Part shown: positions 36,052 through 56,778 of the stretch, one piece after another
Numbering within the stretch: the first letter of the stretch is position 1
How the letters are laid out: the number at the start of each line of letters is the position of its first letter
Source: an uncultured Ectothiorhodospiraceae bacterium
GTDB lineage: Bacteria > Pseudomonadota > Gammaproteobacteria > UBA9214
DNA: 64,000 nucleotides
Direction: 5' to 3'
Assembly: GCA_947259415.1 (NCBI GenBank)
Contig: CAMYMI010000001.1
Span: 33,842-97,841 of the forward strand
Program-made: the position numbers and the translations under genes
The notes under the pieces: model-generated
The model's database searches: none
What the model saw: only the letters and a program-made list of their open reading frames with translations
Told to the model about the DNA's origin: nothing

Positions 36052-36053
36052 GC

Positions 36054-37828: not shown

Positions 37829-38137
37829 TCATTTAGTACTGTGAACTGCTTCGTAGTATTCAAGCTCCCTGAGAAATACGTCACGGTCTATAGGTGCAAG
37901 GATCTCATCGACGAGACTGTTCATGGGGCGCGCGGCCAGTTCGCCAGCCTCGGCAGGTTTCCACGGTACGATATGCAGGGCCTTGGGCAGTTCCTGGTTA
38001 CCGGTGATGGTGGTGCCCTCAAGATCCACTCTGTCTGCGGCTTGTGCACAGGTGGCCAGCCAGAACACTCCGAGCAGACATGCGACAACCTGCAGATACG
38101 ATCCGCTCCGGCAGATACAGATATTCAGGTGTCTCAT
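37829..38137 (-). CDS. Small secreted protein (102 aa)
   Basis: Signal peptide ..VACLLGVFWLATCAQA; 4-nt overlap with the upstream TPR lipoprotein gene. Confidence 0.4.
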   Translation of the reverse strand: MRHLNICICRSGSYLQVVACLLGVFWLATCAQAADRVDLEGTTITGNQELPKALHIVPWKPAEAGELAARPMNSLVDEILAPIDRDVFLRELEYYEAVHSTK

Positions 38138-43404: not shown

Positions 43405-43407
43405 TGC

Positions 43408-43953: not shown

Positions 43954-44239
43954 CTTGGACCTCTGTGTTTCAGCGCCGGACAATCTGCCTATCTGTAAAT
44001 ATGTCGGTCCGCACAGCAAAAGATTGACTAAATTTCAGGAGTAAATTGACTACCAGATAGTCTTATGCAGGTGGTATCTGCAAAGTGTGCGCTGGTTCAC
44101 AATCCGGCTGTCACAGGAAGCCATGCCTCCCCTGCATTACGTGGCTAATCTGATGACCGGAGAAACGAAGCTATTAGTGGACAGGGATACCCACTTTGAT
44201 CTAGCGCAGGCCAGTTCTTACAGGTATTAAATCAGAAGT

Positions 44240-45220
44240 CTATTGTGTGACCCGGGCCAGTCCTTCCGAATAGTGCATCCTGCCACGGTTGTCGATGATG
44301 ATTGCCTCGGTATCCGGAAGCGAATTAACCAGCTTCAAGCCCTTGTCCACGCCCATGACGAATACGCTGGTGGAAAGTGCATCGGTATCAGTAGCATTGT
44401 TGCCAATGATACTGGCGCTGTGGATCTCGCGCGACGAATCCCCGGTCCCCGGATTGAGGATGTGGTGGTAACGCACACCGTCTTCCTCAAAATAGCGTTC
44501 ATAGTCACCGGAAGTGGAAATGGCAGCATCTTCCAGCGGGATCGTGGAGACGAGACCGTCGCGGTTGCGTGGATCACGGATGCCAACCTTCCAGGGATGA
44601 TCCCAGTGCCTGCCGATCACCCGTGTGTCTCCACCGGCACTGACCAGCGCATTTCTGACACCGGCGGCCTGCAGAATTGCAATGCTGCGGTCGACAGCAT
44701 AGCCCTTTGCAATACCACCGAGATCGATACGCACGTCAGGTTGCAGAAACTCTATGGTCGACTGCACTGTATCCAGCCTGACATGGTGATAGCTGATTGC
44801 CGGCAATACATCGGCGAGCTGTTTACCGTCCGGTTTCCTGCCCTTGCGGTAATCGTAATATTGCCCGGCACTGGCATAGGTGACATCGAAGGCACCATGC
44901 GTGATATCGGAAAACATCAACGCCTGCCCGATCAGCATCAGCAGCTCATTGTCGACCGTGATCGGGCCCCTCGCTGCATTGCCATTGACGCTCGACAACT
45001 CGCTGTCGGGTTTGTAGGTGCTCATCAGATCGTCGATACGGCGCATTTCATCCATGACCGCCTCGATCAATACCCTGCCCTGCTTCACGTCGCCATGCCA
45101 CAGCTCCACATTGATGGCTGTGCCCATAATGGCGGCCTCCTCGTGCAGCCAGTCGGCGCTCGCCAAGGAAGGTATCAACAACACAGGGAGGAGAGACGTG
45201 AGAATTATTAGTGGCTTCAT
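44240..45220 (-). CDS. apbE: FAD:protein FMN transferase (flavin transferase ApbE), exported
   Basis: Signal peptide; ..IDLGGIAKGYAVD.., ..ALVSAGGD.., ..TSGDYERY.. ApbE motifs; 71 nt downstream of the DUF1501-like gene on the same strand. Confidence 0.85.
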   Translation of the reverse strand: MKPLIILTSLLPVLLIPSLASADWLHEEAAIMGTAINVELWHGDVKQGRVLIEAVMDEMRRIDDLMSTYKPDSELSSVNGNAARGPITVDNELLMLIGQALMFSDITHGAFDVTYASAGQYYDYRKGRKPDGKQLADVLPAISYHHVRLDTVQSTIEFLQPDVRIDLGGIAKGYAVDRSIAILQAAGVRNALVSAGGDTRVIGRHWDHPWKVGIRDPRNRDGLVSTIPLEDAAISTSGDYERYFEEDGVRYHHILNPGTGDSSREIHSASIIGNNATDTDALSTSVFVMGVDKGLKLVNSLPDTEAIIIDNRGRMHYSEGLARVTQ

Positions 45221-45291
45221 GGCGGGACTTATCGGCCAGCGCCTGATTACATTTAATGCTGCAGCCCGAATGAAGCAAAGACAGTAACCGC

Positions 45292-46884
45292 CTAGACCAC
45301 CCCGTTCACAATGGCATTGAACGCGGTCAGGCTGTCCATCATCGAGGCATTGCCGAGGCCATGACCGGGAAACAGATTTGGGAAATTGGCTGCCTCTCCA
45401 TGCAGGGCCATATAGTTGAGGATGACCGTCTCGACCAGCAGGTTGACCTGGTTGGCTGCGGGAGTTGCGGTGGTTTCAACCGATGCGTCCGGGCGCATCC
45501 AGCCGATCTGCTGGTGCATTGCCTGTTCTGCAGCGCCCAAACCAAGCAATGTCGGGCGTCCTCCGGGGTTGTAGACCAGGAAGAACGAGGCTGCGGTAGA
45601 CGAGTTATCACCGGTCCAGACACCCTTGCCGCCAGCCGCACCGTCGGTCATGCCGTTACTGAATACCGAGCCGTCACTGCAGACGTAGATCATCAGAGGT
45701 ACGCCGGCACCATTGTTGGCGCGTGCGGCATATTCCAGGCAGGCACCGATACAGCGTCCGGCGCGCAGGTCGCGAAGTTCGCCTGTAATACGGTCACCGG
45801 TGTGGTAGTCATAGCCGCCCATGGTGATGGTACCGGCGCCGGAAAAGCCGTTAATCACCATCTTCATAACTGAGGCGGTCTTTCGAAATTCGTTGTCGCT
45901 GTCGAACTCTGCCTGGCTGAAGATACCTGCCGGGCCGACGATGTCCGGATCAAGCGCGGGGTTTAGTGTAGATGGATCGCCAAAGCGATCGGCGATATCA
46001 GCCGCCTTGACGTAGCCGCAGCGCACCAGGTCCTTGATGACGGCATCGGCAGTAAGCTTGGTGTCGACCTTGTCGAGTTTCATCTTGCTGATACGCTCGA
46101 TGGATTCCATGACTGCAACCGCGTCATCCTGGGTCAGCGCGCCGATCAGCTGACCGGTATCGACCATGCCGGTGACATCCGAGGGGCGATCCACCTTGGT
46201 CGGGCGGATACTCGGATCTATCATCATGGTTGGCGCCATGGAGTTGCCACCGGAATCTGAACTGCGCGAACCAATCAGGGTCAGCAGACTGCCGTCAGCG
46301 CCGGCCCTGGCAATGCCATACATTGGGTTATGCGGATTGTTGCCGGTATCGTTGTCAGAGCGTGCAGGAATGATTGCGCCATTGATCAATGCACTGCGCC
46401 CCTGCGCCTTTTCGCCGATACCCTGCAACATGGCACTGGTGGAATGAAAGGCTAGCCCGAAGTCAGTATTGATGAAACTGGTGCCGGTATTCGGATCAAT
46501 AGAGGCCGGCGTCATGTCACCCGGAAGACCCAGCTTGCTGTAACCGGCGGTGCTCAAAAAATCCAGCTGACCACCCTGCTGTCCTACCAGTACGTTGGAG
46601 CCGGAAATATTAGCGCCACCGGCCAGATCGAAACAGATAAACGGGATCTTGCCGGCACCAAGCGATTTGATACCACAGGACGTTTTTAACGCTTCGATAT
46701 CGGGAGACAGTGCAGCGGCAGCCGAGCGCGGGTTGGCAAACAGCCCGAACAGCGAGGGCGCAGTCACCAGTCCGACGCCGGCAATCAGACCTTGCCCTAT
46801 AAAATCACGGCGCGTCAGCGGTCGGCCGTGGTCATTCAGACACAGCGGCTCGTCCGGTAAGCGTATATTGCGTTTTCGCGTCAT
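45292..46884 (-). CDS. Tat-exported protein, DUF1501-like (sulfatase/alkaline-phosphatase-like fold, tentative)
   Basis: Twin-arginine signal LTRRDFIGQGLIAGVGLVTAPSLFG; ..IPFICFDLAGGANISGS.. and ..MGGYDYHTGDR.. resemble the DUF1501 conserved blocks (GGxD, GGxDxH); start taken at MTRKRNIRL. Confidence 0.55.
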   Translation of the reverse strand: MTRKRNIRLPDEPLCLNDHGRPLTRRDFIGQGLIAGVGLVTAPSLFGLFANPRSAAAALSPDIEALKTSCGIKSLGAGKIPFICFDLAGGANISGSNVLVGQQGGQLDFLSTAGYSKLGLPGDMTPASIDPNTGTSFINTDFGLAFHSTSAMLQGIGEKAQGRSALINGAIIPARSDNDTGNNPHNPMYGIARAGADGSLLTLIGSRSSDSGGNSMAPTMMIDPSIRPTKVDRPSDVTGMVDTGQLIGALTQDDAVAVMESIERISKMKLDKVDTKLTADAVIKDLVRCGYVKAADIADRFGDPSTLNPALDPDIVGPAGIFSQAEFDSDNEFRKTASVMKMVINGFSGAGTITMGGYDYHTGDRITGELRDLRAGRCIGACLEYAARANNGAGVPLMIYVCSDGSVFSNGMTDGAAGGKGVWTGDNSSTAASFFLVYNPGGRPTLLGLGAAEQAMHQQIGWMRPDASVETTATPAANQVNLLVETVILNYMALHGEAANFPNLFPGHGLGNASMMDSLTAFNAIVNGVV

Positions 46885-46906
46885 GAGATTAACCTCGTTT
46901 TGGTTC

Positions 46907-49435
46907 CTACTGCAGCAGCATCGCAGCACTGCCCAGTATTGCTGCGCAACTTGCCTTGACTATTTCCTCTGTACGCGCGGGTGTCGCACACGTCGGTGAT
47001 GATCCTGTTGCGCAGCCGGTCAGGATCAGGATGAGATCATCAATCTCACTGGTCACGTTTGCCGGATCAGGCTGCACTGTCAGTCCCGTATTCATCACCC
47101 TGTCGATCAACGGTACGATCATCAGGTCACGCTTGGTCGGTGTATCAAATGCGGTATCGGCACTTTCTGGCGGTAAACCGCTGGTGAAGAACCCGGGGAA
47201 ATAGCTCTCACGTGAGATCGTGCCATTGTTATCGACCAGTGCACTGCAGTATTCAATCGCCATCTGCGAGATCGCCATCTGATGTGCAGACAGGAAGCCC
47301 TCGATATTCTCTACAGTCGGCAACTGCTGCATGACCGTCTGGTACACCGTCTTGACATCGACCTGCCCGGTACTCACGCCGGTGATCGCTGCCAGCGTGG
47401 CATTGATCTCGTGAAAGTTGCGCAGGCCGATATCGGATGCCTCCGGCAGATCGGGTGGTGGTGCCGGTGCAATGGGTGCGGGCTCTACCACGACATTGTT
47501 AGCATTGCCGAATACTTCGAATGTCAGGAAGAACTGATCGGCACTAGATCCCTTCTCGAGCGCGATAACAGTACCTAAATCCGAGAGTGTCTGGCCAACA
47601 CTGGGCGTGTAAAGTGCGCTGCTGATCGTGGTGTTGAGATGCTTGTAGGCCTGGCCTACAGTCGCTTCCTTGCCGTTTATTCCGATACGCATGCCGGCGA
47701 CCGGGATGCCGTCCGGTGCTGCGTTCGGATCAAGACTGATGAAGCGCGGATTATTGAACAGGTAACTGTAGCTGTCGAACTGGCTTACCTCAAACAGAAC
47801 ATAGCTGTCGGTAATGCCGCTGTGATCGTCGACGTTGAACAGCAGGTAGAATTTCTCGCCAACGCCGACCGAAAAGTTCTGGGTGATCTGTTCCTGGGTC
47901 AATGCACGGTTGTGAATAGCCACCATGCGCAGCATGCCCTGCCACTGGCGGTCGCCTGAAACCTCGTTTCCCAGCACGAAGGCAAAGCTATTATCCCAGT
48001 CAATCAGGGTTCCTCCCTGGACCAGATCGACATCGTCGGTGAACACGCCATTGACGAAGATGCGACGACCGTTGACCGGGTCGTAGGTGGCAACCACATG
48101 CTGCAGCGTCGCCTGGAGGTCTTCATCGGCATCGGCCGTATCCAGCGACGGATCGCCATTGGCGTCCGTCGTCGTGCTGCGGTTCATAACGTTGTAGCTA
48201 TACAGGGTCTGCCCGAGCGTGAAGTTACGCTCTGTTGTACCGGCGGAATAGCTTATGATGCGCGCCGGTCCCTGTTGCGACACATTGGCCGGAGCGACCC
48301 AGGCCTCAATAGTGTATTCACCGGTGGCAGTAATAAGGTTATACAGTTTCTGACTGCTGGTGGTAGTTGCCTGGGCCTTGCCGCTGGTGACATTAATTCC
48401 CCAGCCGCCGACCCAGTCGACGCCACCGCTCAGGGTGAGGTGCATGTCCGGCGCTACGCCACTGGTATCAAATGCGATATTACCCGAGCCGGTCTTGAAC
48501 TGGTACATGGCAATGACGTTGTTATCGTAGCGATTGCCACCACTGGCAACGATACCGTCGGGCAGGGTCAATGCCTTGCTTGTTACCAGGTTCGGATCGA
48601 TTGTGGTCACACTGATCGAGCTGGCATATGCCGTAATTGCATTTTCCATTGCAATCGCAGACGCAGCGCAGTCGGAACTGCCACTATTGTTCGGGTCCCA
48701 GCAATTGTGGAATTCATCGCGCAGTCGCACCACGAACCGAGAATTGTCCGGTGCATCCAGATCGATCTTCGGCTTTGCCGCCTCATAGGCGGAGTCCGGG
48801 TCACTGTTGGCAAAGAACGGTGACTGTGCGTCGGTGGATGAGTCTGTATGACAGCCTGCACAATTTGCGGTAAGTACAGGATGCACTGTCGCTGCAAAAC
48901 CGGATGAGTCGGCCGGAAACGATTTGCTGTCGCCCGGATCCTTCAGTGGTGGCGCGGTCAGCGGGATAACCGTGCCGGAACCTGCCAGACCACCGGCCCA
49001 GGCAGTGATATAGGCGGTAATCACGTCGGCACAGGCCTGATCACTGGCCAGCCAGCAGTTATGCCCGGCAGCCACCTTGGTGGCCATGAGAGAATTAGCC
49101 GGCGTAATCATGTCCACTATGGCGTTGGCATCAGCATACGCCAGATTGATATCGTCATCGCGCACGAAGGTCGGGGCCTGGCCAGCGGTGGCGTGACAGT
49201 TACCGCAACGATTACTCGGACTGAGGTTATCCCAGACGTTCAGCTTGAAGGCCTGCACATCCGTAGTCGCCGGTGGCGGCCCGCTGTAATTCGAGGTCGA
49301 CGCTACCGCGGCGGTATTCGGGATTTGGGAGGTACTCTCCCCGCCACCACAGGCCGTCAAACCGGCAGCTATGCCAACGATGACCGCCTGCACAAGGATG
49401 TTATCAAGCAACCTGGGAAGAATTGGGTATTTCAT
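46907..49435 (-). CDS. Lipoprotein with two c-type haem motifs (CGNCH, CAGCH), LamG/ConA-like jelly-roll domain and C-terminal domain (PSCyt-like architecture)
   Basis: Lipobox AAGLTACGG; CxxCH at ~aa 77 and ~aa 192; ..EAWVAPANVSQQGPARIISY..WQGMLRMVAIHNRALTQEQI.. typical Laminin_G_3; 842 aa. Confidence 0.6.
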   Translation of the reverse strand: MKYPILPRLLDNILVQAVIVGIAAGLTACGGGESTSQIPNTAAVASTSNYSGPPPATTDVQAFKLNVWDNLSPSNRCGNCHATAGQAPTFVRDDDINLAYADANAIVDMITPANSLMATKVAAGHNCWLASDQACADVITAYITAWAGGLAGSGTVIPLTAPPLKDPGDSKSFPADSSGFAATVHPVLTANCAGCHTDSSTDAQSPFFANSDPDSAYEAAKPKIDLDAPDNSRFVVRLRDEFHNCWDPNNSGSSDCAASAIAMENAITAYASSISVTTIDPNLVTSKALTLPDGIVASGGNRYDNNVIAMYQFKTGSGNIAFDTSGVAPDMHLTLSGGVDWVGGWGINVTSGKAQATTTSSQKLYNLITATGEYTIEAWVAPANVSQQGPARIISYSAGTTERNFTLGQTLYSYNVMNRSTTTDANGDPSLDTADADEDLQATLQHVVATYDPVNGRRIFVNGVFTDDVDLVQGGTLIDWDNSFAFVLGNEVSGDRQWQGMLRMVAIHNRALTQEQITQNFSVGVGEKFYLLFNVDDHSGITDSYVLFEVSQFDSYSYLFNNPRFISLDPNAAPDGIPVAGMRIGINGKEATVGQAYKHLNTTISSALYTPSVGQTLSDLGTVIALEKGSSADQFFLTFEVFGNANNVVVEPAPIAPAPPPDLPEASDIGLRNFHEINATLAAITGVSTGQVDVKTVYQTVMQQLPTVENIEGFLSAHQMAISQMAIEYCSALVDNNGTISRESYFPGFFTSGLPPESADTAFDTPTKRDLMIVPLIDRVMNTGLTVQPDPANVTSEIDDLILILTGCATGSSPTCATPARTEEIVKASCAAILGSAAMLLQ

Positions 49436-49438
49436 GCC

Positions 49439-50632
49439 TCAGTCACCCTTGCAGTAGACAGCGGTTTCCGCGAACACTGTCTTCATGTTGTAGTTGCTGG
49501 CCTTGAAATCGGCCGTGATAGTCGCAACCTCGTTTCGATCCGCACTGTTGCCCGGTTCACGCAGGCACACTGCCCGAAATACCTTCTCTACTTGGCAACT
49601 GGCAAAGACATCGCTGTTGGCGAGTTCATTACCCAGCGACTTGGCGCCATTGCCGCTTCCCGGAAGCACCGTGTCCCAGCCAAGCAGGGAGTTCTGACCA
49701 GAGCGCCAGTAGTTATCCCAGCTGTCATCCGGTGTAATAAAACCGTACTTGAACGTGTCGGCGTTGATGAAGTACTTGGGCTGAACGATGCCGGGGGTGT
49801 ATTCGATGCTGCCGGTGGCCTCGTTGAAGTTGTAATAGGCAAATGCCTGGGCCATCGGGTCCATCCCGCTGTGGCAACCGACACAGGAGTTCAGAAAGAT
49901 ACGGCTGTCTCCGCCGGGGCTGCGTGATACGTCCTGGCGAATCCGGTCCGGTGAGCGGCTGTTGTCTTTGACCTGCTCGAGGTCGTTGCACATGTGGTTC
50001 AGCAGGGTGAAGCGGAACATGGCGCGATTGGTTCCAGCGACAAAAAAGGCCTCGGCACCGGCACGCGTGGTCATAACGCCGGCCGTGGCCGCTGCCGGCA
50101 GGCTGGTGATCTCGGATTGTGCAATCGGAACCAGATTTGTCTTCAAATCAATACCCTGGTCTTCCATCGCAGCATAGTGCGTGTTATCCGTCATCGAGTA
50201 GGCCGGGATTGATAATGACGACGCACCGATGTAGACAAGATCGGCAGACAGCAGCGTATTGAACGGAACATCGTCGCGAATCATACCTATGACAGTGGCT
50301 GTGTAGTCGTTCAGTGGCGCAAACACGGTCTGCTCACGGTTCGTCCATGGTGTGGCAAAGTTTTTCAGCGTGACGTTGTAAAACGCGCTGTCATCTATCG
50401 CCATCATGGCGGCACTGATGGCATTACCGGCTACGATCGCCGTTTCCATGGCATCCAGCACCGTTTCTGACGGCGGTATGCCTGCCAGGCGATCATGCAT
50501 GCGCTTTGCCTGACGGCGTTCCTGGTCACCCGCCAGCGCATGCGTTGCGAAAACGCTGGCCAGCCCAAGGACTGCAACGGCACGACCAAGACTTCGAAAA
50601 AACTCAGCACCCAGATCAGTTTGAAAACACAT
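49439..50632 (-). CDS. Secreted protein with one CxxCH haem motif (CVGCHSGMDP), DUF1585/DUF1588-like (tentative)
   Basis: Signal peptide ..AVAVLGLASVFATHALAG; single CxxCH; 397 aa; 3-nt gap to downstream 842-aa gene. Confidence 0.55.
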   Translation of the reverse strand: MCFQTDLGAEFFRSLGRAVAVLGLASVFATHALAGDQERRQAKRMHDRLAGIPPSETVLDAMETAIVAGNAISAAMMAIDDSAFYNVTLKNFATPWTNREQTVFAPLNDYTATVIGMIRDDVPFNTLLSADLVYIGASSLSIPAYSMTDNTHYAAMEDQGIDLKTNLVPIAQSEITSLPAAATAGVMTTRAGAEAFFVAGTNRAMFRFTLLNHMCNDLEQVKDNSRSPDRIRQDVSRSPGGDSRIFLNSCVGCHSGMDPMAQAFAYYNFNEATGSIEYTPGIVQPKYFINADTFKYGFITPDDSWDNYWRSGQNSLLGWDTVLPGSGNGAKSLGNELANSDVFASCQVEKVFRAVCLREPGNSADRNEVATITADFKASNYNMKTVFAETAVYCKGD

Positions 50633-50795
50633 GCGCTCTATCCCGGCTTGTTATGGTTTCAGGACCTGTCTTCGGCCCGTGCAGGCAGATACTGATGCGA
50701 TAAGCGTTTTTTTTCTATGACGTGGTTCGCGGAATGGGTCTCCGCACCAACCTATAGTTGAGCTGCGAGCAACGGGGATCGATTAGTGTGCACCA

Positions 50796-50813
50796 GGTCA
50801 CAGTTATGTGACC
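50796..50813. promoter_or_regulatory. Perfect palindrome GGTCACA-GTTA-TGTGACC in the divergent promoter region
   Basis: 7-bp inverted repeat with 4-bp spacer, ~48 nt upstream of the 892-aa gene ATG and ~165 nt upstream of the 397-aa gene start. Confidence 0.3.
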
Positions 50814-50860
50814 CGTACCGTCCCACGTATCAGGTTTACCGCCCGGAGGGCCGATCAGCT

Positions 50861-53464
50861 ATGAATATGCATGCACTTTCCGGAATACCCCCCATGAGAC
50901 CAAGCTTCCGCAGCCTTGCTGCATCGTTGCTGGCAGGAGTGTTGCTGGGGGGCTGTGGCGGGGGTGATGGTCAGGATCCGGACCCATTGGTGGAGGATTT
51001 CGGCATCGCCTTTGTCAGGCGCCCGCTGGAGCTGGACAATACCGGCGTGGCAGTTCAGTCGGACATCCGCGAAATGGAATCCTTCACCCCCGGTGGTGAC
51101 CTGTTCTATCGCGATCTCGCCTCACCGAGTGCAGCGGAGCGCAATATTACAGGTGCCATCACCCAGGACATGGGCGACGTCAGGGACGTGGAAGTGTCCT
51201 ACGATGGCACCAGGCTGCTGTTTTCCCTGCATCAGCCGGATATTCCCAACGCGACACCGGCAGATCAGAACAAGTGGGACATCTGGGAATACGACATAAC
51301 AGCCGATTCGCTGCGCCGCGTGACAGCAACGGATAACACGGCAAAGGCCGGCGATGACGTGGCACCGCATTACCTGCCGGACGGGCGCATCATCTTTTCC
51401 TCCACGCGCCAACGTCAGTCACGCGCCACCTTACTGGATGAGGGCAAGACTGCATTCTCCGCAGTGGATGAAAATCGTAACGAGCCTGCCTTCGTGTTGC
51501 ACGTCATGGACAGTGATGGCAGCAACATCCACCAGGTTTCGTACAACCAGAGCCATGACCTCGATCCCATGGTGCTGGCTGCCGGTCTGGACTCCGGCCA
51601 GATAGTGTTCAGCCGCTGGGATAACATGGGTAGCCGTAATGCCATCAGCCTCTACAAGATGCATCCCGACGGCTCGGAACTGCAACTGTATTACGGCGCG
51701 CACAGCCATGATACTGGCACCAGCGGCGCAGAGGTGCACTTCCTGCAGCCGCGCGAGACGTTTGATGGTCGCCTCATGACCGTGATGCTGCCGTTCACCA
51801 ATTCCTGGCGCGGCGGTGAACTGGTGCTGATCGATTCCGGAAATTATCTGGACAACGCCTCCCCGACGGCCGCGAACCAGGGGGTCCTTTCCGGTCCAGC
51901 CCAGCAGGGTGCAACAGTTAACGACGTACATACCGATAACACCATATCCCCTGGCGGTCGTTTCATGAGTGCCTGGCCGCTGCTGGATGGTACTAACCGG
52001 GCCCTGGTCAGCTGGAGCAGTTGCCGGCTGATCGAGAATACTCAGATCGTACCCTGTACACCGGCCGGACTGGCTAACCCGGCGGCCGTGGAAGCGAACC
52101 CGATTTACGGAATATTCATCTACGACATGGATAACGACACGCAAATACCGATTGTCATCCCCCAGGAAGGCTTTGCGTTCACTGATGTCGTCGCGGCTGC
52201 ACCGCGTCCGTTGCCATCTCTCATCTTCGACAAAACACCTGGCACCGGTCTTGACCAGCAGGCGTACGATGAAGGTGTAGGTATCCTCGATATCCGCAGC
52301 GTCTATGACGAGGACGGCGTCGACACAACGCCATTGGGTATTGCATCGCTGGCCGATCCGGCGCAGGCAGTGGCTGACGACCGCCCTGCCCGTTTCCTGC
52401 GCATTGTCAAGGCTGTCGGTATTCCCGACAATGACACCCTGATGCTGCAGGGCACGGCCTTTGGCGCAAGCAGTGCGCAGTTGATGCGCGAGATTATCGG
52501 TTATGCGCCGGTGCAGCCGGACGGGTCCGTCAGGGTCAAGGTACCCGCGAACGTGCCACTCGCTATCAGCGTACTGGACAAGGACGCTCGCCGCATCGGT
52601 GCGCGTCACCAGAACTGGCTGCAGGTGCGTGCGGGAGAGACCCTGACATGCATCGGTTGCCACGACCACAGCAGCGGTACCCCGCACGGCCAGCCGGCTG
52701 ACCCGATGTCGCGTGGCCTCGCATCCTTGTATCCCGGTGCGCCGGTGACCGGCCTGCCGTTCCCGAATACGGTCTCCACACTCTGGGCGGATGCCGGCGA
52801 GACCATGGCACAGGCCCTGACGCGAATCGATCCAGACCAGCTACTGCCGACAGTTGACCTGTTCTACGACGATATCTGGACCGACGAGACGGCTGCAGGA
52901 CGACTGAAGGATGCCAGTTTTTCATACACCTATGCAGCGCTGGACACCCCGGCACCGGTCACACCGGCGTGCCAGACCAGCTGGAACAATATCTGTCGAA
53001 CAGTAATTCATTACGAACAGCATATCCATCCGCTGTGGAGCCGTGACCGGGGTGCGGATACCTGCGTCAATTGCCATACGCCGACCGATGCCGCTGGCAT
53101 GCTGATGGTTCCGGATGAGCAGCTGGACCTCACTGATGGCCTGGATTCCCAGGTGCCAGAGCATTTCAAGTCCTACCGCGAACTGCTGTTCAACGACTTC
53201 GCTCAGGAGATCGGCCCCAACGGGCTGCAGGACATCATGATTCCAGGTCCGGTTGACCCGAATACCGGGCTGCCGACACAGGTACCGGTTCCGGTGGCAG
53301 CGTCCATGAATGCAGCGGGGGCTAACGCCAGCACTACTTTTTTCTCGCGCTTTGCCGCAGGCGGTACACATGCCGGCAGGCTCGAGCCGGATGAACTGCG
53401 ACTGCTGTCCGAATGGATGGATATCGGTGCACAGTACTACAACGACCCATTTGCCGCGCCATAA
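50861..53464 (+). CDS. Lipoprotein with TolB-like (PD40) beta-propeller and two C-terminal CxxCH haem motifs; hydrazine-synthase-alpha-like middle-domain architecture (tentative)
   Basis: Lipobox LLGGCGGG; PD40-type repeats (..LPDGRIIFSSTR.., ..MDSDGSNIHQVS..); CIGCHDHSSGTPHG and CVNCHTPTD; start at ATG 50861 with GGAGGG RBS. Confidence 0.6.
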   Translation: MNMHALSGIPPMRPSFRSLAASLLAGVLLGGCGGGDGQDPDPLVEDFGIAFVRRPLELDNTGVAVQSDIREMESFTPGGDLFYRDLASPSAAERNITGAITQDMGDVRDVEVSYDGTRLLFSLHQPDIPNATPADQNKWDIWEYDITADSLRRVTATDNTAKAGDDVAPHYLPDGRIIFSSTRQRQSRATLLDEGKTAFSAVDENRNEPAFVLHVMDSDGSNIHQVSYNQSHDLDPMVLAAGLDSGQIVFSRWDNMGSRNAISLYKMHPDGSELQLYYGAHSHDTGTSGAEVHFLQPRETFDGRLMTVMLPFTNSWRGGELVLIDSGNYLDNASPTAANQGVLSGPAQQGATVNDVHTDNTISPGGRFMSAWPLLDGTNRALVSWSSCRLIENTQIVPCTPAGLANPAAVEANPIYGIFIYDMDNDTQIPIVIPQEGFAFTDVVAAAPRPLPSLIFDKTPGTGLDQQAYDEGVGILDIRSVYDEDGVDTTPLGIASLADPAQAVADDRPARFLRIVKAVGIPDNDTLMLQGTAFGASSAQLMREIIGYAPVQPDGSVRVKVPANVPLAISVLDKDARRIGARHQNWLQVRAGETLTCIGCHDHSSGTPHGQPADPMSRGLASLYPGAPVTGLPFPNTVSTLWADAGETMAQALTRIDPDQLLPTVDLFYDDIWTDETAAGRLKDASFSYTYAALDTPAPVTPACQTSWNNICRTVIHYEQHIHPLWSRDRGADTCVNCHTPTDAAGMLMVPDEQLDLTDGLDSQVPEHFKSYRELLFNDFAQEIGPNGLQDIMIPGPVDPNTGLPTQVPVPVAASMNAAGANASTTFFSRFAAGGTHAGRLEPDELRLLSEWMDIGAQYYNDPFAAP

Positions 53465-53484
53465 GGCCGGAAAGATGAACGCAA

Positions 53485-54252
53485 GTGATCACTAATGCCT
53501 GGCCTCACTCCTGCAAGCTCGTACTCGTCAGCATCCTGCTGCTGGAGAGCCTGTTTTGCGCGCCTGCCCTTGCGGAGGAGGAATTCTTCGAGGTACGGGT
53601 CGCCGAACCGTACCTCGAGATGCACACCGGTCCGGGACGTGGCTACCCGGTATACCACGTGGTGGATCGGGGCGAACTGGTTAAAGTTATCAAGCGTCGC
53701 ACCGACTGGTTCATGGTACGCACAAAGCGCGGCAAGGAAGGCTGGGGCAAGCGTGCGGAAATGGAGCTTACCTTGACCCCGAACGGCGAATCGACAAAAT
53801 TTGCCGAGGCGGAATTCGGTGATTTCACGCGCCGTCGCTGGGAGGCCGGTTTCCTCGCGGGAGATTTCGAGGGGGCGAACATAGTCTCGGCGTATGCAGG
53901 CTATTACCTGACGCAGAACCTTTCCGTTGAACTGGCAATGTCGCAGGTATTCGGCAATTTCTCCGATGCACTAACGGCTAGCGCCAATCTGCTGGCACAG
54001 CCGTTTCCGGAATGGCGCCTGTCACCGTATTTCCTGCTTGGCATCGGTGCAATCTATACCGACCCGAATGTAACGCTAGTGAACGAACAGGACCGTACCG
54101 AACAGATCAGCAATGTCGGTGTGGGTGTGCGCTGGTACCTGACGCGGCGCTTTATTCTGCGAGCTGAATACCAGAATCATGTCATCTTTCAGAACAAGGA
54201 TGACAACCAGGAGATAAACGAATGGAAAGCCGGATTCGCATTTTTCTTTTGA
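53485..54252 (+). CDS. Outer-membrane beta-barrel protein with N-terminal bacterial SH3 domain
   Basis: Signal peptide; SH3_3-like ..YLEMHTGPGRGYPVYHVVDRGELVKVIKRRTDWFMVRTKRGKEGW..; alternating-hydrophobic beta-strands ending ..WKAGFAFFF (C-terminal Phe). Confidence 0.55.
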   Translation: MITNAWPHSCKLVLVSILLLESLFCAPALAEEEFFEVRVAEPYLEMHTGPGRGYPVYHVVDRGELVKVIKRRTDWFMVRTKRGKEGWGKRAEMELTLTPNGESTKFAEAEFGDFTRRRWEAGFLAGDFEGANIVSAYAGYYLTQNLSVELAMSQVFGNFSDALTASANLLAQPFPEWRLSPYFLLGIGAIYTDPNVTLVNEQDRTEQISNVGVGVRWYLTRRFILRAEYQNHVIFQNKDDNQEINEWKAGFAFFF

Positions 54253-54893
54253 AGTCGTTGTCATGTCTGGTGGTACTTGGTCTGTCGAGTGGCTGTTCAC
54301 TGCTGCGTACCGAGGAACCAACGGTATACAGCGAGTCTGAACCGGTAATCAAGCCGGGTATCGAGCGACGCACCATAACCGAGGCGGATATCGACAGCGA
54401 GGACTTCGAGGTCGGGGCGTTCGTCGGGGTGATGAGCATCGAAGACTTCGGCAGCAACGCCGTGTACGGTGTGCGGGCAGCCTACCATGCCACCGAGGAT
54501 TTCTTTTTCGAGGCTGCTGCGGGTGCAACCGAGGCCGACGAGACCAGCTATGAAACCCTCAGCGGCGGAGCCCAGCTGCTGACCGGCAGCCAACGTGATC
54601 TTTATTACTATAACCTTTCGCTGGGCTATAACATCCTGCCGGGCGAGAGTTTCATCGGCAGCCGCTATGCCTTCAACAGCGCGCTCTATCTTATTGCCGG
54701 TGTCGGCAATACCGAGTTTGCCGACGACAGTCACTTTACCTACAACGTCGGTGCAGGCTACCGTTTTCTGCTTAATGACTGGGTCACACTGCACCTGGAT
54801 ATCAAGGATCACGTGTTCGAGTCGGACCTGCTGGGTACCGACAAGTATACCCACAATCTGGAAGCCACCGTTGGCCTTTCCATGTTCTTTTGA
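54222..54893 (+). CDS. Outer-membrane beta-barrel lipoprotein
   Basis: Lipobox LSSGCS; amphipathic strands; C-terminal ..TVGLSMFF. Confidence 0.5.
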   Translation: MESRIRIFLLKSLSCLVVLGLSSGCSLLRTEEPTVYSESEPVIKPGIERRTITEADIDSEDFEVGAFVGVMSIEDFGSNAVYGVRAAYHATEDFFFEAAAGATEADETSYETLSGGAQLLTGSQRDLYYYNLSLGYNILPGESFIGSRYAFNSALYLIAGVGNTEFADDSHFTYNVGAGYRFLLNDWVTLHLDIKDHVFESDLLGTDKYTHNLEATVGLSMFF

Positions 54894-54903
54894 GGAGTCC
54901 GTT

Positions 54904-55410
54904 ATGCATAACACACAATTTGGTTTCTTGAAACATACACTGGCAGCGGTGCTGGTACTGTTTACAACCGCGGTAACTGCCACTACCGCCCAGGCGCCTG
55001 CGCCAGACTTCACCCTGAAGAGCAACAGCGGCGAGAACATCAGGCTCAGTGAATTGCGTGGCGAGGTGGTGTTGATCAATTTTTGGGCATCCTGGTGCGG
55101 ACCCTGCCGCCAGGAGATGCCGATACTGAGCGAGCTGCATGACAAGTACAAGACCATGGGCTTCACCGTGCTGGGTGTCAACGTGGAGGAAAACTCCAGC
55201 GCGGCCCGCAAGCTGCTGAAGGACATGCCGGTCAGCTTTCCTGTGCTGTTCGACAACGACAGCAGCGTCAGCAAGCAGTATGACGTGGCCGCCATGCCAA
55301 GCACTGTACTGGTCGATCGCAACGGCAATATGCGGTACCTGCACAGGGGCTACAAGCCCGGGCTCGAAGACACCTATGTCGAGCAGGTGCGTAACCTGAT
55401 CAAGGAGTAA
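54904..55410 (+). CDS. TlpA-like periplasmic thiol:disulfide oxidoreductase (thioredoxin fold, WCGPC)
   Basis: Signal peptide; ..VVLINFWASWCGPCRQEMP.. ; GAGGAG RBS before ATG 54904. Confidence 0.75.
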   Translation: MHNTQFGFLKHTLAAVLVLFTTAVTATTAQAPAPDFTLKSNSGENIRLSELRGEVVLINFWASWCGPCRQEMPILSELHDKYKTMGFTVLGVNVEENSSAARKLLKDMPVSFPVLFDNDSSVSKQYDVAAMPSTVLVDRNGNMRYLHRGYKPGLEDTYVEQVRNLIKE

Positions 55411-55643
55411 TGCCGCTTATGTGTCTGCGCGCCCGTTGTCTACTGCTAACTGCCCTGTTGCTGGCGGGCTGCAGTTCGATCGAGCCCTGGGTGAAGCCCT
55501 ATGAACGGGCCCATCTGGCCGATCCGATCATGAGCTTTGACCGCGATCCGGTTTCCGGGGCCTATATGACCCATGTATACCAGGCACGCGAGGCGGCACG
55601 TGGCGCCGAGGGCGGACACGGTGGTGGCTGTGGCTGTAACTAG
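55410..55643 (+). CDS. DUF4266 family lipoprotein
   Basis: Lipobox LLAGCSS; ..ERAHLADPIMSFDRDP...THVYQAREAARGAEGGHGGGCGCN C-terminal GGGCGCN signature. Confidence 0.7.
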   Translation: MPLMCLRARCLLLTALLLAGCSSIEPWVKPYERAHLADPIMSFDRDPVSGAYMTHVYQAREAARGAEGGHGGGCGCN

Positions 55644-56778
55644 ACAAGTAACCGGCTGGCTGGCAGGTTCCGCGTTGCTCTGCTGCAGTCTGCTGATCCG
55701 GGCCGGCGTGCTGCCCGAAGACCGGGCCGACGCACTGTATCACTCCTATGAAGGTGGCGGTGTCGAGATCACCGGTCCCTCGCTGATGGTATTGAAGAAG
55801 TTCGGACAGAACGTGGCGGTCAGTGGCAACTACTACGTCGATTCCATCAGCAGCGCCTCGATCGACGTTGTGACCAGTGGCGCGAGCGCCTATTCGGAAG
55901 ACCGCACCGAGTTCTCGGGTGGCGTTGACTACATGCACAACAACTCGATCATGAGCCTGTCCTACACCAACAGCTCGGAAGATGATTACGATGCCAATAC
56001 CGCGAGTTTTGGCATCAGTATGGATATGTTCGGCAACATGACCACAGTGTCGATGGGCTATTCACGCGGCTGGGATACGGTCATGAACAACCAGGACAGC
56101 AGCTTTTCGCGTGACCTCGACCGTCAGAACTACAAGCTGGGCCTGACGCAGGTGATCACCAAAGACATGCTGCTTGAGCTGAACTACGAGGGGATCACCG
56201 ATGAAGGGTTTCTGAACAATCCCTACCGATCGGTGCGCTTTCTTAACCCCGACGGTGTCAGCTACGGAACCGAAGCCGAACGGTACCCCAACACTCGCAC
56301 CAGTAACGCGGTCGCGATCCGTTCGCTTTATTACCTGCCCTACCGTGCCGCCGTCTCCGGTGAATACCGCTTCTTCGACGACACCTGGGGTATTGACGCG
56401 CACAACGTGAAAATCGGCTACATCCATCCGCTGCAAGGCGGCTGGACTCTGGAAGGCAGTTACCGCTACTACACACAGAAAGCGGCCGACTTCTACAGCG
56501 ATCTGTTCCCGTATCAGAACGCACAGAACTTCCTGGCTCGCGACAAGGAGCTGAGCGAATTTTCGAGCCACACCTTCGGTGTCAAGCTAAGCTATGATTT
56601 CATAGAGAATGGCTGGCGTTCGATTGACAAGGGTACGATCAACGTCGCCTGGGACCATATCCTGTTCGACTACGAAGACTTCCGTGACCTTAGAGTCACG
56701 ACAGCACTGCCGGGTGAAGAGCCTCTGTACAGTTTCAGTGCCGATGTGCTGCAGCTGTATGTCTCGGTCTGGTTCTGA
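55621..56778 (+). CDS. DUF3570 family protein
   Basis: Frame opens at ATG 55573 but that overlaps the DUF4266 gene by 70 nt; likely GTG start ~55621-55630 giving signal peptide ..WLAGSALLCCSLLIRAGV; ..YHSYEGGGVEITGPSLMV.. typical DUF3570 N-terminus; contains ..DVVTSGAS.. Confidence 0.6.
   Translation: MVAVAVTRQVTGWLAGSALLCCSLLIRAGVLPEDRADALYHSYEGGGVEITGPSLMVLKKFGQNVAVSGNYYVDSISSASIDVVTSGASAYSEDRTEFSGGVDYMHNNSIMSLSYTNSSEDDYDANTASFGISMDMFGNMTTVSMGYSRGWDTVMNNQDSSFSRDLDRQNYKLGLTQVITKDMLLELNYEGITDEGFLNNPYRSVRFLNPDGVSYGTEAERYPNTRTSNAVAIRSLYYLPYRAAVSGEYRFFDDTWGIDAHNVKIGYIHPLQGGWTLEGSYRYYTQKAADFYSDLFPYQNAQNFLARDKELSEFSSHTFGVKLSYDFIENGWRSIDKGTINVAWDHILFDYEDFRDLRVTTALPGEEPLYSFSADVLQLYVSVWF

What the first reader, a model, noticed from the sequence alone, without database searches (positions are those of the whole stretch)
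44240..56778. 12.5-kb divergent locus of ten exported proteins: ApbE + DUF1501-like Tat protein + five CxxCH haem motifs + OM barrels + TlpA/DUF4266/DUF3570 - candidate uncharacterised extracytoplasmic redox system
The minus-strand operon runs 397-aa CxxCH protein -> 842-aa lipoprotein (2 x CxxCH + LamG) -> Tat-exported DUF1501-like protein -> ApbE (gaps 3, 22 and 71 nt). The plus-strand operon runs 892-aa PD40-propeller lipoprotein (2 x CxxCH) -> SH3-OM barrel -> OM barrel lipoprotein -> TlpA-like WCGPC thioredoxin -> DUF4266 -> DUF3570 (gaps <= 20 nt or overlaps). Every product has a Sec, Tat or lipoprotein signal. From memory of genome neighbourhoods, ApbE, TlpA-like thioredoxin, DUF4266 and DUF3570 normally sit contiguously. 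Here that set is split by a ~8 kb block of c-type-haem-motif proteins whose architectures (PSCyt-like CxxCH + LamG; DUF1501 partner; HzsA-middle-domain-like propeller) are mostly known from Planctomycetes and anammox bacteria, not gammaproteobacteria. The co-operonic ApbE (flavinylation of periplasmic proteins) and TlpA (reductant supply for cytochrome c maturation) match what a secreted flavo/haem redox machine would need. No function is known for any of DUF1501, DUF3570, DUF4266 or the PSCyt-like proteins.
Basis: partly seen in the sequence, partly recalled or inferred. Interest (0 to 1): 0.8.

Follow-up and report, generated by a model that had tools for sequence, protein, structure and literature searches.

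The report
Conserved envelope flavin-haem locus with motor
The ten exported redox-type genes are real, but they are half of a 19-gene locus, conserved across many marine and soil gammaproteobacteria, that also encodes a proton-driven Tol/TonB-like motor of long-unknown function, which suggests what that motor may serve.

Summary
The genes, motifs and export signals are present as described. All five CxxCH motifs are invariant in 77-88 orthologues (39-87% identity).

The haem block is not a foreign insert splitting an ApbE/TlpA/DUF4266/DUF3570 cassette. [397-aa, 842-aa, 545-aa] divergent from [892-aa, two OM barrels, DUF4266, DUF3570] is a fixed unit, found in 58/58 and 61/61 loci long enough to judge (Woeseiaceae, Marinobacter, Thiodiazotropha, Ectothiorhodospiraceae-type MAGs). 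ApbE and TlpA move or are absent.

DUF3570 is already a proven ApbE flavinylation substrate (Méheust 2021). The 892-aa protein is a full-length homologue of hydrazine synthase alpha (Foldseek E 1e-23). The 545-aa protein has no DUF1501 hit; a low-confidence model places it in the alkaline-phosphatase superfamily. The 397-aa family is distantly PSCyt3/PSD2-like. The 842-aa protein is not PSCyt by Pfam.

The minus-strand gene string continues for nine more genes (35110-44019). In content, order and sizes these match the gammaproteobacterial Agl/Glt "core complex of unknown function" (Luciano 2011). In 32/32 metagenome loci this module abuts ApbE, TlpA, the 545-aa gene, DUF3570 or the 397-aa gene.

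I found no paper making this link. Mechanism and substrate remain inferred.

The parts
35110..36051 (-). GltG-like TonB-type protein. It has an N-terminal transmembrane segment, a Pro/Lys-rich linker and an AgmX/PglI-type C-terminal domain.
   Evidence: NF033768 at 2.2e-19, 69.4 bits against a cutoff of 40. Weak hits to gliding_GltG (4e-11) and TonB_C. Size and position match GltG in Luciano Table S3.
36054..36554 (-). ExbD/TolR-like protein (AglS position).
   Evidence: PF02472 at 3.7e-16. Order and size match.
36551..37069 (-). ExbD/TolR-like protein (AglQ position).
   Evidence: PF02472 at 1.7e-15. Matches.
37069..37716 (-). MotA/TolQ/ExbB-like proton channel (AglR position).
   Evidence: PF01618 at 1.9e-29; TolQ at 1.4e-19, below its cutoff.
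37829..38137 (-). 102-aa secreted protein. It occupies the position of the 'additional gene' of the gammaproteobacterial core complex.
   Evidence: ORF with a signal peptide whose start overlaps the stop of the preceding (upstream) gene by 4 nt. Conserved at this position in the metagenome loci. It fills the locus tag skipped between aglR and gltE.
38134..38871 (-). TPR lipoprotein (GltE position). The probable start is M37, at about 38763.
   Evidence: TPR_1 at 1e-12. Weak gliding_GltE hit at 2e-8. Lipobox LAGC.
38741..41539 (-). 932-aa TPR lipoprotein (GltD position) with repeated CpoB/YbgF-like TPR units.
   Evidence: TPR_6 at 2.4e-20. tol_pal_ybgF at 117.6 bits in 4 stretches. Size matches the GltD range of 933-1016 aa.
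41536..43404 (-). 622-aa exported TPR protein (GltC position).
   Evidence: TPR hits. Size matches the GltC range of 550-692 aa. It travels with the locus on either side.
43408..44019 (-). 203-aa exported protein with no family hit ('u203'). It always heads the core-complex module.
   Evidence: No Pfam or NCBIfam hit. 425 relatives in metagenomes; always followed by GltC-D-E-s102-AglR-Q-S-GltG.
44240..45220 (-). ApbE, a periplasmic FAD:protein FMN transferase.
   Evidence: PF02424 at 5.5e-83 with a signal peptide.
45292..46929 (-). Tat-exported alkaline-phosphatase-superfamily protein ('T545'). The probable start is M16, at 46884.
46907..49435 (-). 842-aa lipoprotein with two CxxCH motifs, a LamG domain and a C-terminal domain of unknown kind.
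   Evidence: Laminin_G_3 at 3.6e-21. Both CxxCH motifs are invariant in 81/81 orthologues. LamG is present in 25/25 family members and PSCyt in none.
49439..50632 (-). 397-aa secreted protein with one CxxCH motif. It is a distant PSCyt3/PSD2-type protein.
   Evidence: PSD2 at 7.6e-5, below the cutoff. 21/43 family members hit PSD2 and 6 hit PSCyt3. The CxxCH is invariant in 88/88 orthologues and lies among only 11 invariant columns at 33-53% identity.
50786..53464 (+). Lipoprotein homologous over its full length to hydrazine synthase alpha. It has a TolB-like six-bladed propeller, the HZS middle domain and a C-terminal region with two CxxCH motifs. The probable start is M26, at 50861.
53485..54252 (+). 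OM beta-barrel with an N-terminal SH3 domain.
   Evidence: SH3_3 at 5.6e-8; OMP_b-brl at 4.7e-12; OprF membrane domain at 1.9e-4. The C-terminal Phe is conserved.
54222..54893 (+). OM beta-barrel lipoprotein of the TIGR04565 'OMP_myx_plus' type.
   Evidence: TIGR04565 at 2.2e-53, 180.6 bits against a cutoff of 60. Lipobox SSGC.
54904..55410 (+). TlpA/ResA-like periplasmic thiol:disulfide oxidoreductase with a WCGPC motif.
   Evidence: Redoxin at 1.7e-31; ResA at 1.1e-34 and TlpA at 1.5e-23, both below their equivalog cutoffs.
55410..55643 (+). DUF4266 lipoprotein ending in GCGCN.
   Evidence: PF14086 at 2.6e-23. The lipobox and the C-terminal CGC are conserved.
55573..56778 (+). DUF3570, a predicted OM barrel and ApbE substrate. 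It carries two tandem Dxx[ST]xA[ST] motifs: DSISSAS at 90-96 and DVVTSGAS at 98-105. The start codon is uncertain.
   Evidence: PF12094 at 5.4e-45; weak Porin_4 hit. The motif Ala and Ser are invariant or nearly so in 63 orthologues. DUF3570 flavinylation was shown experimentally in Chlorobium luteolum (PMC8238504).

Best explanation
The flagged 12.5 kb is the redox and outer-membrane half of one conserved envelope locus of about 21.7 kb and 19 genes (window 35110-56778). It has three modules.

(1) A flavinylation set: ApbE, a TlpA-like reductase, the DUF4266 lipoprotein with a C-terminal CxC, and DUF3570, an OM-barrel-type protein that ApbE loads with covalent FMN.

(2) A haem set:
- an OM-anchored full-length homologue of hydrazine-synthase alpha (TolB-like propeller plus two haem sites);
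- a lipoprotein with two haem sites and a LamG domain;
- a PSCyt3/PSD2-like protein with one haem site;
- a Tat-exported alkaline-phosphatase-superfamily protein;
- two small OM barrels.

(3) Downstream on the same strand, an Agl/Glt-type 'core complex': a TolQ/ExbB-like channel, two TolR/ExbD-like proteins, a GltG-type TonB-like transducer, three TPR proteins and two small exported proteins.

Proposed working (inferred). The haem lipoproteins and the flavinylated DUF3570 barrel form a redox-active assembly at the outer membrane. ApbE matures it, and TlpA/DUF4266 keep it reduced or feed it from the periplasmic thiol pool. The proton-motive-force motor, acting through the TonB-like protein and the TPR scaffold, works on the OM barrels or the TolB-like propeller to assemble, gate or expose that assembly. 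The substrate is unknown.

Shown: gene content, homologies, motif conservation and linkage. Inferred: that haem and FMN are attached here, the electron path, the coupling to the motor, and the direction of action.
For: Linkage.
- The eight-gene kernel is present in 58/58 loci with at least 7 kb on the 892-aa side and in 61/61 loci with at least 4.7 kb on the other side. These span Woeseiaceae, Marinobacter, Thiodiazotropha and Ectothiorhodospiraceae-type MAGs at 39-92% identity.
- ApbE sits after the 545-aa gene, after DUF3570, or convergent to the kernel. The u203/GltC... module sits on either side of the kernel. Linkage is kept through these rearrangements.
- In loci selected only by u203, the order u203-GltC-D-E-s102-AglR-Q-S-GltG holds in the loci of at least 9 kb, apart from three where the GltE-like gene fell below my HMM threshold. 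In 32/32 loci with upstream sequence the neighbouring gene is ApbE, TlpA, T545, DUF3570 or divergent C397.
- Most junctions in the window's minus-strand gene string are tight: eight of the twelve are overlaps or gaps of 3 nt or less, and the others are 22, 71, 112 and 220-286 nt.

Redox character.
- Five CxxCH motifs are invariant.
- ApbE hits at 5.5e-83.
- The DUF3570 motifs are conserved even where ApbE is not nearby.
- DUF3570 flavinylation by ApbE is experimental (PMC8238504).
- The 892-aa protein is homologous to HZS-alpha, and its first CxxCH aligns on the CSGCH of HZS-alpha.

Motor.
- Gene order and sizes equal those of the published gammaproteobacterial core complex.
- The GltG-type C-terminal domain scores above its curated cutoff.
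- All products are exported.
Against: No experiment bears on this locus. In 25 of 43 genome loci with about 10 kb on both sides (the Woeseiaceae type), no core complex lies nearby. ApbE is absent from within 10 kb in 27 of the 43 and TlpA in 21, so the kernel can be encoded apart from the motor, and may work without it.

A reduced variant has the three haem genes, an SH3 protein and a FadL-type barrel, but no 545-aa gene, DUF4266 or DUF3570.

A gap of 220-286 nt separates apbE from u203 in the window, which allows separate transcription.

No inner-membrane electron donor such as DsbD turned up among the window ORFs I annotated. The GltC-, GltD- and GltE-like genes are TPR proteins whose homology to the Myxococcus proteins I could not test directly. 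The model of the 545-aa protein is of low confidence (pLDDT 53.5).
Confidence: 0.5

Rival explanations
1. This is a self-contained ten-gene secreted flavo/haem redox machine, in which a Planctomycete/anammox-type haem block has been inserted into a canonical ApbE-TlpA-DUF4266-DUF3570 cassette.
For: The ten genes and their motifs are real. The four-gene cassette is a known recurrent cluster (PMC8238504). The 892-aa and 397-aa proteins do have HZS-alpha-type and PSCyt3/PSD2-type relatives.
Against: The haem block is the constant partner of DUF4266/DUF3570 in 58/58 loci, while ApbE and TlpA are the variable parts. The families are abundant in gammaproteobacteria. Base composition across the locus is uniform at 0.55-0.60 GC. 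The minus-strand gene string continues into nine more conserved genes.
Confidence: 0.15
2. This is an energised uptake system. The TonB-like motor opens the OM barrels (DUF3570 and the two small barrels) to import a nutrient. The flavin and haem proteins first reduce or transform that nutrient at the outer membrane, for example in reductive iron or other metal assimilation.
For: The TolQ/ExbB, ExbD and TonB-type components are the parts of known PMF-driven OM transport. Méheust et al. report 25 DUF3570 clusters with a VIT1 iron transporter and a general link between flavinylation and iron uptake. In one variant the barrel partner is swapped for a FadL-type channel, which suggests that something passes the OM.
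Against: There is no 22-strand TonB-dependent receptor, no periplasmic binding protein or ABC importer, and no Fur-type context in the locus. The TPR scaffold and the GltG-type domain point to the Agl/Glt class, not to classical TonB uptake.
Confidence: 0.15
3. This is a secretion or surface-display device. As the Myxococcus Glt OM platform controls exposure of the lipoprotein CglB, the core complex and barrels here move the two haem lipoproteins (842 aa and 892 aa) to the cell surface. ApbE, TlpA, DUF4266 and DUF3570 serve as the resident redox partner.
For: The two largest haem proteins are lipoproteins. The OM barrels come as a pair, and one is of the TIGR04565 'myx_plus' type. [quoted passage not shown]
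Against: The barrels did not hit any Myxococcus GltA/B model in NCBIfam at E<=0.01. In this dataset Woeseiaceae-type loci keep the lipoproteins and barrels with no motor within 10 kb. This overlaps with the best explanation and is a special case of it.
Confidence: 0.12
4. These are independent systems that merely lie side by side: a flavinylation cassette, a PSCyt-like cytochrome plus phosphatase-fold pair, and a Tol-like core complex.
For: Each module exists elsewhere on its own. DUF3570 clusters occur in Chlorobium and other taxa. Core complexes occur in species listed by Luciano et al.. Kernel-only loci also exist.
Against: Adjacency survives several different rearrangements, and divergence down to about 40% identity, across several families. 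The 32/32 and 58/58 counts are hard to reconcile with chance neighbourhood.
Confidence: 0.08

Closest known systems
ApbE / DUF3570 / DUF4266 / thioredoxin-like flavinylation-associated gene cluster (Méheust et al. 2021, eLife, PMC8238504)
   Same: All four components are present. DUF3570 carries two tandem flavinylation-type motifs, and DUF4266 ends in CxC. All are exported.
   Different: The thioredoxin is of the Redoxin/TlpA type, not the PF13899 type reported. No DsbD lies nearby. In this clade the first motif is SSAS, and the second is mostly TTAS rather than [ST]GA[ST]. The cassette is permanently joined to three CxxCH proteins, a phosphatase-fold protein and two barrels, and often to a Tol-like motor. 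None of this is mentioned in the main text of that paper; I could not check its cluster table, because the stored copy of the supplement was truncated.
Agl/Glt 'core complex' of Gammaproteobacteria (Luciano et al. 2011, PLoS Genet, PMC3169522), the ancestor-type of the Myxococcus gliding (Agl-Glt) and spore-coat (Nfs) machines
   Same: The gene order is the same: GltG-AglS-AglQ-AglR-(small gene)-GltE-GltD-GltC. The sizes are near-identical: 313/166/172/215/102/245/932/622 aa, against the ranges in Table S3. The TonB-like protein has the AgmX/GltG-type C-terminal domain.
   Different: Equivalog-level scores for Myxococcus GltG and GltE are far below their cutoffs. There are no GltF, H, I, J or K genes. 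An extra exported 203-aa gene heads the module. The module is physically joined to flavin and haem genes. The published function is 'unknown'.
Hydrazine synthase alpha subunit (Kuenenia stuttgartiensis, PDB 5c2v chain A)
   Same: The architecture is the same over the full length: six-bladed propeller, middle domain and a C-terminal region with two CxxCH motifs. The first CxxCH aligns on the CSGCH of HZS-alpha.
   Different: Identity is 16%, and the NCBIfam equivalog score is 41.7 against a cutoff of 800. It is a lipoprotein, and there are no beta or gamma subunit genes in the locus. It is therefore not a hydrazine synthase.
PSCyt/PSD 'Planctomycete-specific cytochrome' genes paired with a Tat-exported DUF1501 or DUF1552 gene (PVC superphylum; function unknown, PMC5615132)
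   Same: CxxCH protein(s), one of them with a LamG/CBM-type domain, are followed by a Tat-exported protein of the phosphatase/sulfatase fold class. The 397-aa family gives PSD2 and PSCyt3 hits.
   Different: The 545-aa protein matches neither DUF1501 nor DUF1552 in Pfam. The 842-aa family has no PSCyt or PSD hit. The cytochrome function is split over two genes. The host is gammaproteobacterial.
Tol-Pal system
   Different: There are two TolR-like genes and no Pal. The propeller is fused to a domain with two haem sites and is lipid-anchored. The TPR proteins are much larger. All equivalog scores for TolQ and TolR are below their cutoffs.

Membership tests
ApbE/DUF3570 flavinylation cluster (Méheust 2021) | Exported ApbE (PF02424) encoded with a DUF3570 (PF12094) protein. 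| tested here: met
   5.5e-83 and 5.4e-45, in the same locus.
ApbE/DUF3570 flavinylation cluster (Méheust 2021) | Two conserved [S/T]GA[S/T] flavinylation motifs in DUF3570. | tested here: inconclusive
   The window has SSAS (93-96) and SGAS (102-105). Orthologues mostly have SSAS and TTAS. The Ala and the final Ser are invariant or nearly so in 63 sequences, but the Gly is usually replaced.
ApbE/DUF3570 flavinylation cluster (Méheust 2021) | DUF4266 with a C-terminal CxC, plus a thioredoxin-like protein. | tested here: met
   PF14086 at 2.6e-23, ending in GCGCN. Redoxin with WCGPC, although not of the PF13899 type.
ApbE/DUF3570 flavinylation cluster (Méheust 2021) | Covalent FMN on DUF3570. 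| not testable with these tools
   This needs a UV-fluorescence gel or mass spectrometry.
Agl/Glt core complex (Luciano 2011) | gltC, gltD, gltE and gltG plus aglR, aglQ and aglS in one cluster, in a fixed order, with one extra small gene. | tested here: met
   The domains, order and sizes match Table S3. The order is conserved in the metagenome loci.
Agl/Glt core complex (Luciano 2011) | The TonB-like member is of the GltG/AgmX type. | tested here: met
   NF033768 at 69.4 bits against a cutoff of 40.
Agl/Glt core complex (Luciano 2011) | Phylogenetic placement of each gene in the clade that holds the Myxococcus glt/agl genes. | not tested
The TPR proteins give only generic TPR hits.
Myxococcus gliding machinery (equivalogs GltG, GltJ, GltE) | Score above the NCBIfam equivalog cutoff. 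| tested here: not met
   GltG 42 against 650; GltJ 33 against 450; GltE 34 against 225.
DUF1501 (PF07394) | Pfam model match. | tested here: not met
   No Pfam hit at E<=10. Homologues carry no precomputed Pfam domain.
Alkaline phosphatase / sulfatase superfamily | Core alpha/beta fold. Conserved Asp and DxH-type motifs at the positions where the superfamily binds metal are expected from my own knowledge of the superfamily. | tested here: met
PSCyt3/PSD2 (PF07627/PF07624) | Pfam match above the gathering score. | tested here: inconclusive
   The window 397-aa protein scores 22.8 against 25.8. 21/43 family members hit PSD2 (best 1.5e-10) and 6 hit PSCyt3.
PSCyt1/PSCyt2/PSD1 (842-aa protein) | Pfam match. 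| tested here: not met
   0/25 family members match; only Laminin_G_3 and weak generic cytochrome-motif hits are found.
Hydrazine synthase alpha | Full-length fold and collinear sequence similarity. | tested here: met
   Foldseek at 1.1e-23, TM 0.52-0.60. Profile at 8e-10 in 4 collinear stretches.
Hydrazine synthase alpha | Equivalog-level score, and partner beta and gamma subunits. | tested here: not met
   41.7 bits against a cutoff of 800. No such genes are among the locus products.
c-type cytochromes | CxxCH conserved in exported proteins. | tested here: met
   Five motifs: four are kept in every one of 77-88 orthologues, and the C760/C763 cysteines of the fifth in 76/77. Chance expectation is 0.008.
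c-type cytochromes | Covalent haem. | not testable with these tools
   This needs haem staining or mass spectrometry.

The most novel reading that the evidence does not exclude
The gammaproteobacterial Agl/Glt 'core complex', whose function has been unknown since 2011, is the proton-motive-force engine of an outer-membrane redox machine. Through a GltG-type TonB-like arm it mechanically gates or positions a flavinylated DUF3570 barrel and a TolB-like haem propeller lipoprotein homologous to hydrazine synthase alpha. If so, envelope electron transfer or catalysis at the outer membrane would be coupled to inner-membrane energy. This would be a kind of system with no characterised precedent, and it would also suggest what the ancestor of the Myxococcus gliding and spore-coat machines did.
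Probability: 0.25. Interest if true: 0.9.

Novelty: new variant of a known kind. Interest (0 to 1): 0.7.

Why it matters
Three sets of genes have each been published as 'function unknown': the DUF3570/DUF4266/ApbE cluster, the PSCyt-type cytochrome plus Tat-protein pairs, and the gammaproteobacterial Agl/Glt core complex. Here they turn out to be physically and evolutionarily joined in one locus.

That gives each field a concrete hypothesis. For the core complex, a candidate cargo or partner. For the flavinylation cluster, candidate redox partners and a motor. For the hydrazine-synthase-alpha fold, a widespread non-anammox relative.

The locus occurs in cultured isolates: Marinobacter sp. BW6, M. 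metalliresistant CuT 6 and Lentisalinibacter spp.. The question is therefore testable by genetics and biochemistry.

Tried and rejected
- The afdb50 fold library was not available, so only PDB libraries were used.
- PDB sequence searches found nothing for the 545-aa and 842-aa proteins.
- The stored copy of Méheust supplementary file 1 is truncated and holds no DUF3570 rows, so I could not count how many published DUF3570 clusters contain the haem genes.
- Promoter and terminator scans gave no more sites than shuffled sequence. They say nothing about operon boundaries.
- Looking up the window's ApbE by exact sequence found no record, so the source organism is not in that collection. The nearest relatives are Ectothiorhodospiraceae-labelled MAGs, at about 85% identity for the 397-aa protein.
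- No paper mentions TIGR04565, so a link between the 223-aa barrel and Myxococcus GltA/GltB remains untested.
- The 842-aa and 397-aa proteins are not detectably related to each other.
- I considered that the nine extra genes are the housekeeping Tol-Pal operon. I rejected this because there are two TolR-like genes, a GltG-type C-terminal domain, three large TPR genes and no Pal.
- I considered horizontal insertion of the haem block. I rejected it on uniform GC content and universal synteny.

Full report
**1. What is there**

The ten ORFs exist at the stated coordinates, with the stated spacing. Pfam and NCBIfam give the following:

| Product | Hit |
|---|---|
| ApbE | PF02424, 5.5e-83 |
| 842-aa protein | Laminin_G_3, 3.6e-21 |
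| 892-aa protein | HZS_alpha, 4.4e-16 |
| 255-aa protein | SH3_3 plus OMP_b-brl |
| 223-aa lipoprotein | TIGR04565 OM barrel, 2.2e-53 |
| TlpA-like protein | TlpA/ResA-like redoxin with WCGPC, 1.7e-31 |
| DUF4266 | 2.6e-23, ending in GCGCN |
| DUF3570 | 5.4e-45 |

Every product has a readable Sec, lipobox or twin-arginine signal. The three large proteins carry five CxxCH motifs, against 0.008 expected from their composition.

Two labels did not hold. The 545-aa protein has no DUF1501 hit, or any other Pfam or NCBIfam hit, even at E<=10. The 842-aa family has no PSCyt or PSD hit in 25 diverse members.

**2. Is it a unit?**

A scan of one genome per species with the 397-aa protein returned 164 relatives, and 80 loci were kept. 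I mapped the window proteins onto them by tblastn and by HMMs built from the orthologues.

- The arrangement [397-842-545] divergent from [892, SH3-barrel, barrel, (TlpA), DUF4266, DUF3570] is present in 58 of 58 loci with at least 7 kb on one side. It is present in 61 of 61 loci with at least 4.7 kb on the other side.
- The hosts are labelled Woeseiaceae, Marinobacter, Candidatus Thiodiazotropha, Ectothiorhodospiraceae, Chromatiales and Steroidobacteraceae. Identities to the window run from 39% to 92%.
- ApbE and TlpA are the variable parts. ApbE follows the 545-aa gene (as in the window), follows DUF3570, lies convergent (Marinobacter), or is absent from the neighbourhood. The Woeseiaceae type has both flanks unrelated.
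- The haem block is therefore not an insert that splits a canonical cassette. It is the constant partner of DUF4266/DUF3570.
- Four of the five CxxCH motifs are kept in every one of 77-88 orthologues; in the fifth, two cysteines are kept in 76 of 77. In a more distant set of the 397-aa family (33-53% identity), its CxxCH lies among only 11 invariant columns.

**3. What the individual proteins are**

- *DUF3570.* It is not functionless. Méheust et al. (eLife 2021) showed that ApbE flavinylates Chlorobium luteolum DUF3570 at two [S/T]GA[S/T] sites. They also described the recurrent ApbE/DUF3570/thioredoxin-like/DUF4266 cluster: 227 examples with DsbD and 316 without, function uncertain. The window protein has two tandem motifs, DSISSAS and DVVTSGAS. 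In 63 orthologues the Ala and the final Ser are invariant or nearly so. This holds even where no ApbE gene is nearby. The Gly is usually Ser or Thr.
- *The 397-aa family.* It has 1386 representatives at 50% identity. It is distantly PSCyt3/PSD2-like: 21 of 43 members hit PSD2, and 6 hit PSCyt3.
- *Background.* Published work on PSCyt genes notes that they sit next to two families of unknown genes, that some carry pfam13385 modules, and that nothing is known of their function.

**4. The boundaries are wrong, and this is the main new point**

Downstream of apbE the minus-strand gene string continues with little or no spacing apart from a 220-286-nt gap after apbE and a 112-nt gap after the 102-aa gene:

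| Coordinates | Product |
|---|---|
| 43408-44019 | exported 203-aa protein (u203) |
| 41536-43404 | 622-aa TPR protein |
| 38741-41539 | 932-aa TPR lipoprotein |
| 38134-38871 | TPR lipoprotein |
| 37829-38137 | 102-aa secreted protein |
| 37069-37716 | MotA/TolQ/ExbB protein |
| 36551-37069 | ExbD/TolR protein |
| 36054-36554 | ExbD/TolR protein |
| 35110-36051 | Pro-rich TonB-like protein |

Beyond these on both sides the genes are housekeeping.

- *Conservation.* A metagenome scan with u203 gave 425 relatives. In the loci of at least 9 kb the order u203-TPR-TPR-TPR-small-ExbB-ExbD-ExbD-TonB holds, apart from three where the GltE-like gene was not detected. In 32 of 32 loci with upstream sequence, the neighbouring gene is ApbE, TlpA, the 545-aa gene, DUF3570 or the divergent 397-aa gene. 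In the genome loci the module lies on either side of the kernel.
- *Match to a published module.* The content, order and sizes match the 'core complex' of Luciano et al. (PLoS Genet 2011). That complex comprises gltG, aglS, aglQ, aglR, one extra small gene, gltE, gltD and gltC in a single cluster. It occurs in Marinobacter, Saccharophagus, Cellvibrio, Hahella, Shewanella frigidimarina and Teredinibacter. The authors call it a functional complex of unknown function and the ancestor-type of the Myxococcus gliding and spore-coat machines.
- *Domain evidence.* The window's TonB-like protein passes the curated cutoff of the AgmX(GltG)/PglI C-terminal domain model (69.4 against 40 bits) and weakly hits GltG and GltJ. 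The small TPR lipoprotein weakly hits GltE.
- *Limits.* I could not place the genes phylogenetically with the Myxococcus sequences. Equivalog-level scores are far below their cutoffs. This is the gammaproteobacterial core type, not a gliding machine.
- *Literature.* I found no paper linking this core complex to DUF3570, ApbE or these cytochromes. The search covered open-access PMC and bioRxiv only.

**5. How it probably works**

Shown: one conserved locus encodes only exported or membrane proteins. They are:
- a flavin transferase and its proven substrate family;
- a thiol reductase and a CxC lipoprotein;
- three proteins with invariant haem-attachment motifs;
- a phosphatase-fold Tat protein;
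- three OM-barrel-type proteins;
- a Tol/Exb-class motor with a TonB-like arm and a TPR scaffold.

Inferred:
- The haem lipoproteins and the flavinylated DUF3570 form a redox-active assembly at the outer membrane.
- ApbE matures that assembly.
- TlpA/DUF4266 reduce it or supply it, from a DsbD/CcdA encoded elsewhere.
- The motor, through the GltG-like protein and the TPR proteins, acts on the barrels or on the TolB-like propeller to assemble, gate or expose it.

There are two precedents. Tol-Pal has TolA acting on TolB. The Myxococcus OM platform regulates exposure of a lipoprotein.

The substrate is unknown. The HZS-alpha fold, the LamG module and the phosphatase fold do not point to one chemistry.

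Against tight coupling: 25 of 43 fully flanked genome loci have the kernel with no motor within 10 kb; ApbE is missing in 27 of the 43 and TlpA in 21. One genome has only the three haem genes with an SH3 protein and a FadL-type barrel.

**6. Verdict**

It is an exported flavin/haem system with conserved motifs and co-occurring operons. The 'foreign block in a split cassette' idea, the Planctomycete-only framing, the DUF1501 and PSCyt labels for two proteins, and the boundaries are wrong or outdated.
- The system is a new variant of known kinds: a Tol/Exb-Agl/Glt-type envelope machine joined to a flavinylation cluster and to HZS-alpha-like and PSCyt-like cytochromes.
- Interest is 0.7. The finding connects three published 'unknown function' gene sets and gives a testable candidate role for the gammaproteobacterial core complex, in organisms that can be cultured.

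Noticed in passing
L161 (CP070821.1) 5935-14238: A reduced variant of the locus. The 397-like and LamG (727 aa) genes lie divergent from an HZS-alpha-like lipoprotein, a 190-aa SH3 protein and a Toluene_X/FadL-type OM barrel. There is no 545-aa gene, DUF4266 or DUF3570 within 10 kb. A cytochrome P460 gene lies about 5 kb away (621-1136).
   Followed up: partly
window 50861-51000 (892-aa protein, residues about 33-46 counted from M26): Directly after the lipobox Cys there is a strongly conserved linear peptide (consensus GQDPDPLVED) in a low-confidence, apparently unstructured stretch of the model. It could be a TonB-box or TolA-box-like handle for the GltG-like protein.
   Followed up: no
window 38741-41539: The 932-aa TPR lipoprotein passes the NCBIfam cutoff for Tol-Pal protein YbgF/CpoB (117.6 against 90.1 bits) through four repeated stretches. 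An automatic annotation would probably misname it.
   Followed up: no
homologues of window 45292-46929 (P0056, P0087, P0095): Some NCBI records name members of the 545-aa family 'general secretion pathway protein GspF'. This looks like a propagated misannotation: the fold is alkaline-phosphatase-like and the protein is Tat-exported.
   Followed up: no
window 9940-10289 (-): Bacterial RNase P RNA class A, at 346.6 bits. It was the only Rfam hit in the window.
   Followed up: yes
window 17083-19098 (-): A 671-aa protein with a Thioredox_DsbH (DUF255) domain at 1.2e-70. This is another thioredoxin-fold protein, but it lies 16 kb from the locus among housekeeping genes.
   Followed up: no
window 59041-63491 (-): A 347-aa PD40-repeat protein, followed by an 1127-aa fusion of peptidase M1-like, M28 and PDZ domains. 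Both lie just outside the locus and are not conserved with it in related loci.
   Followed up: partly
window 1-4000: GC content is 0.49-0.51 here, against 0.55-0.66 in the rest of the window. The cause was not examined.
   Followed up: no
L009, L038, L078, L079, L016: Some related loci appear to carry a duplicated small OM barrel, or a duplicated barrel plus TlpA set, next to the HZS-alpha-like gene. This comes from the HMM maps and could partly be an artefact of overlapping stop-to-stop ORFs.
   Followed up: no
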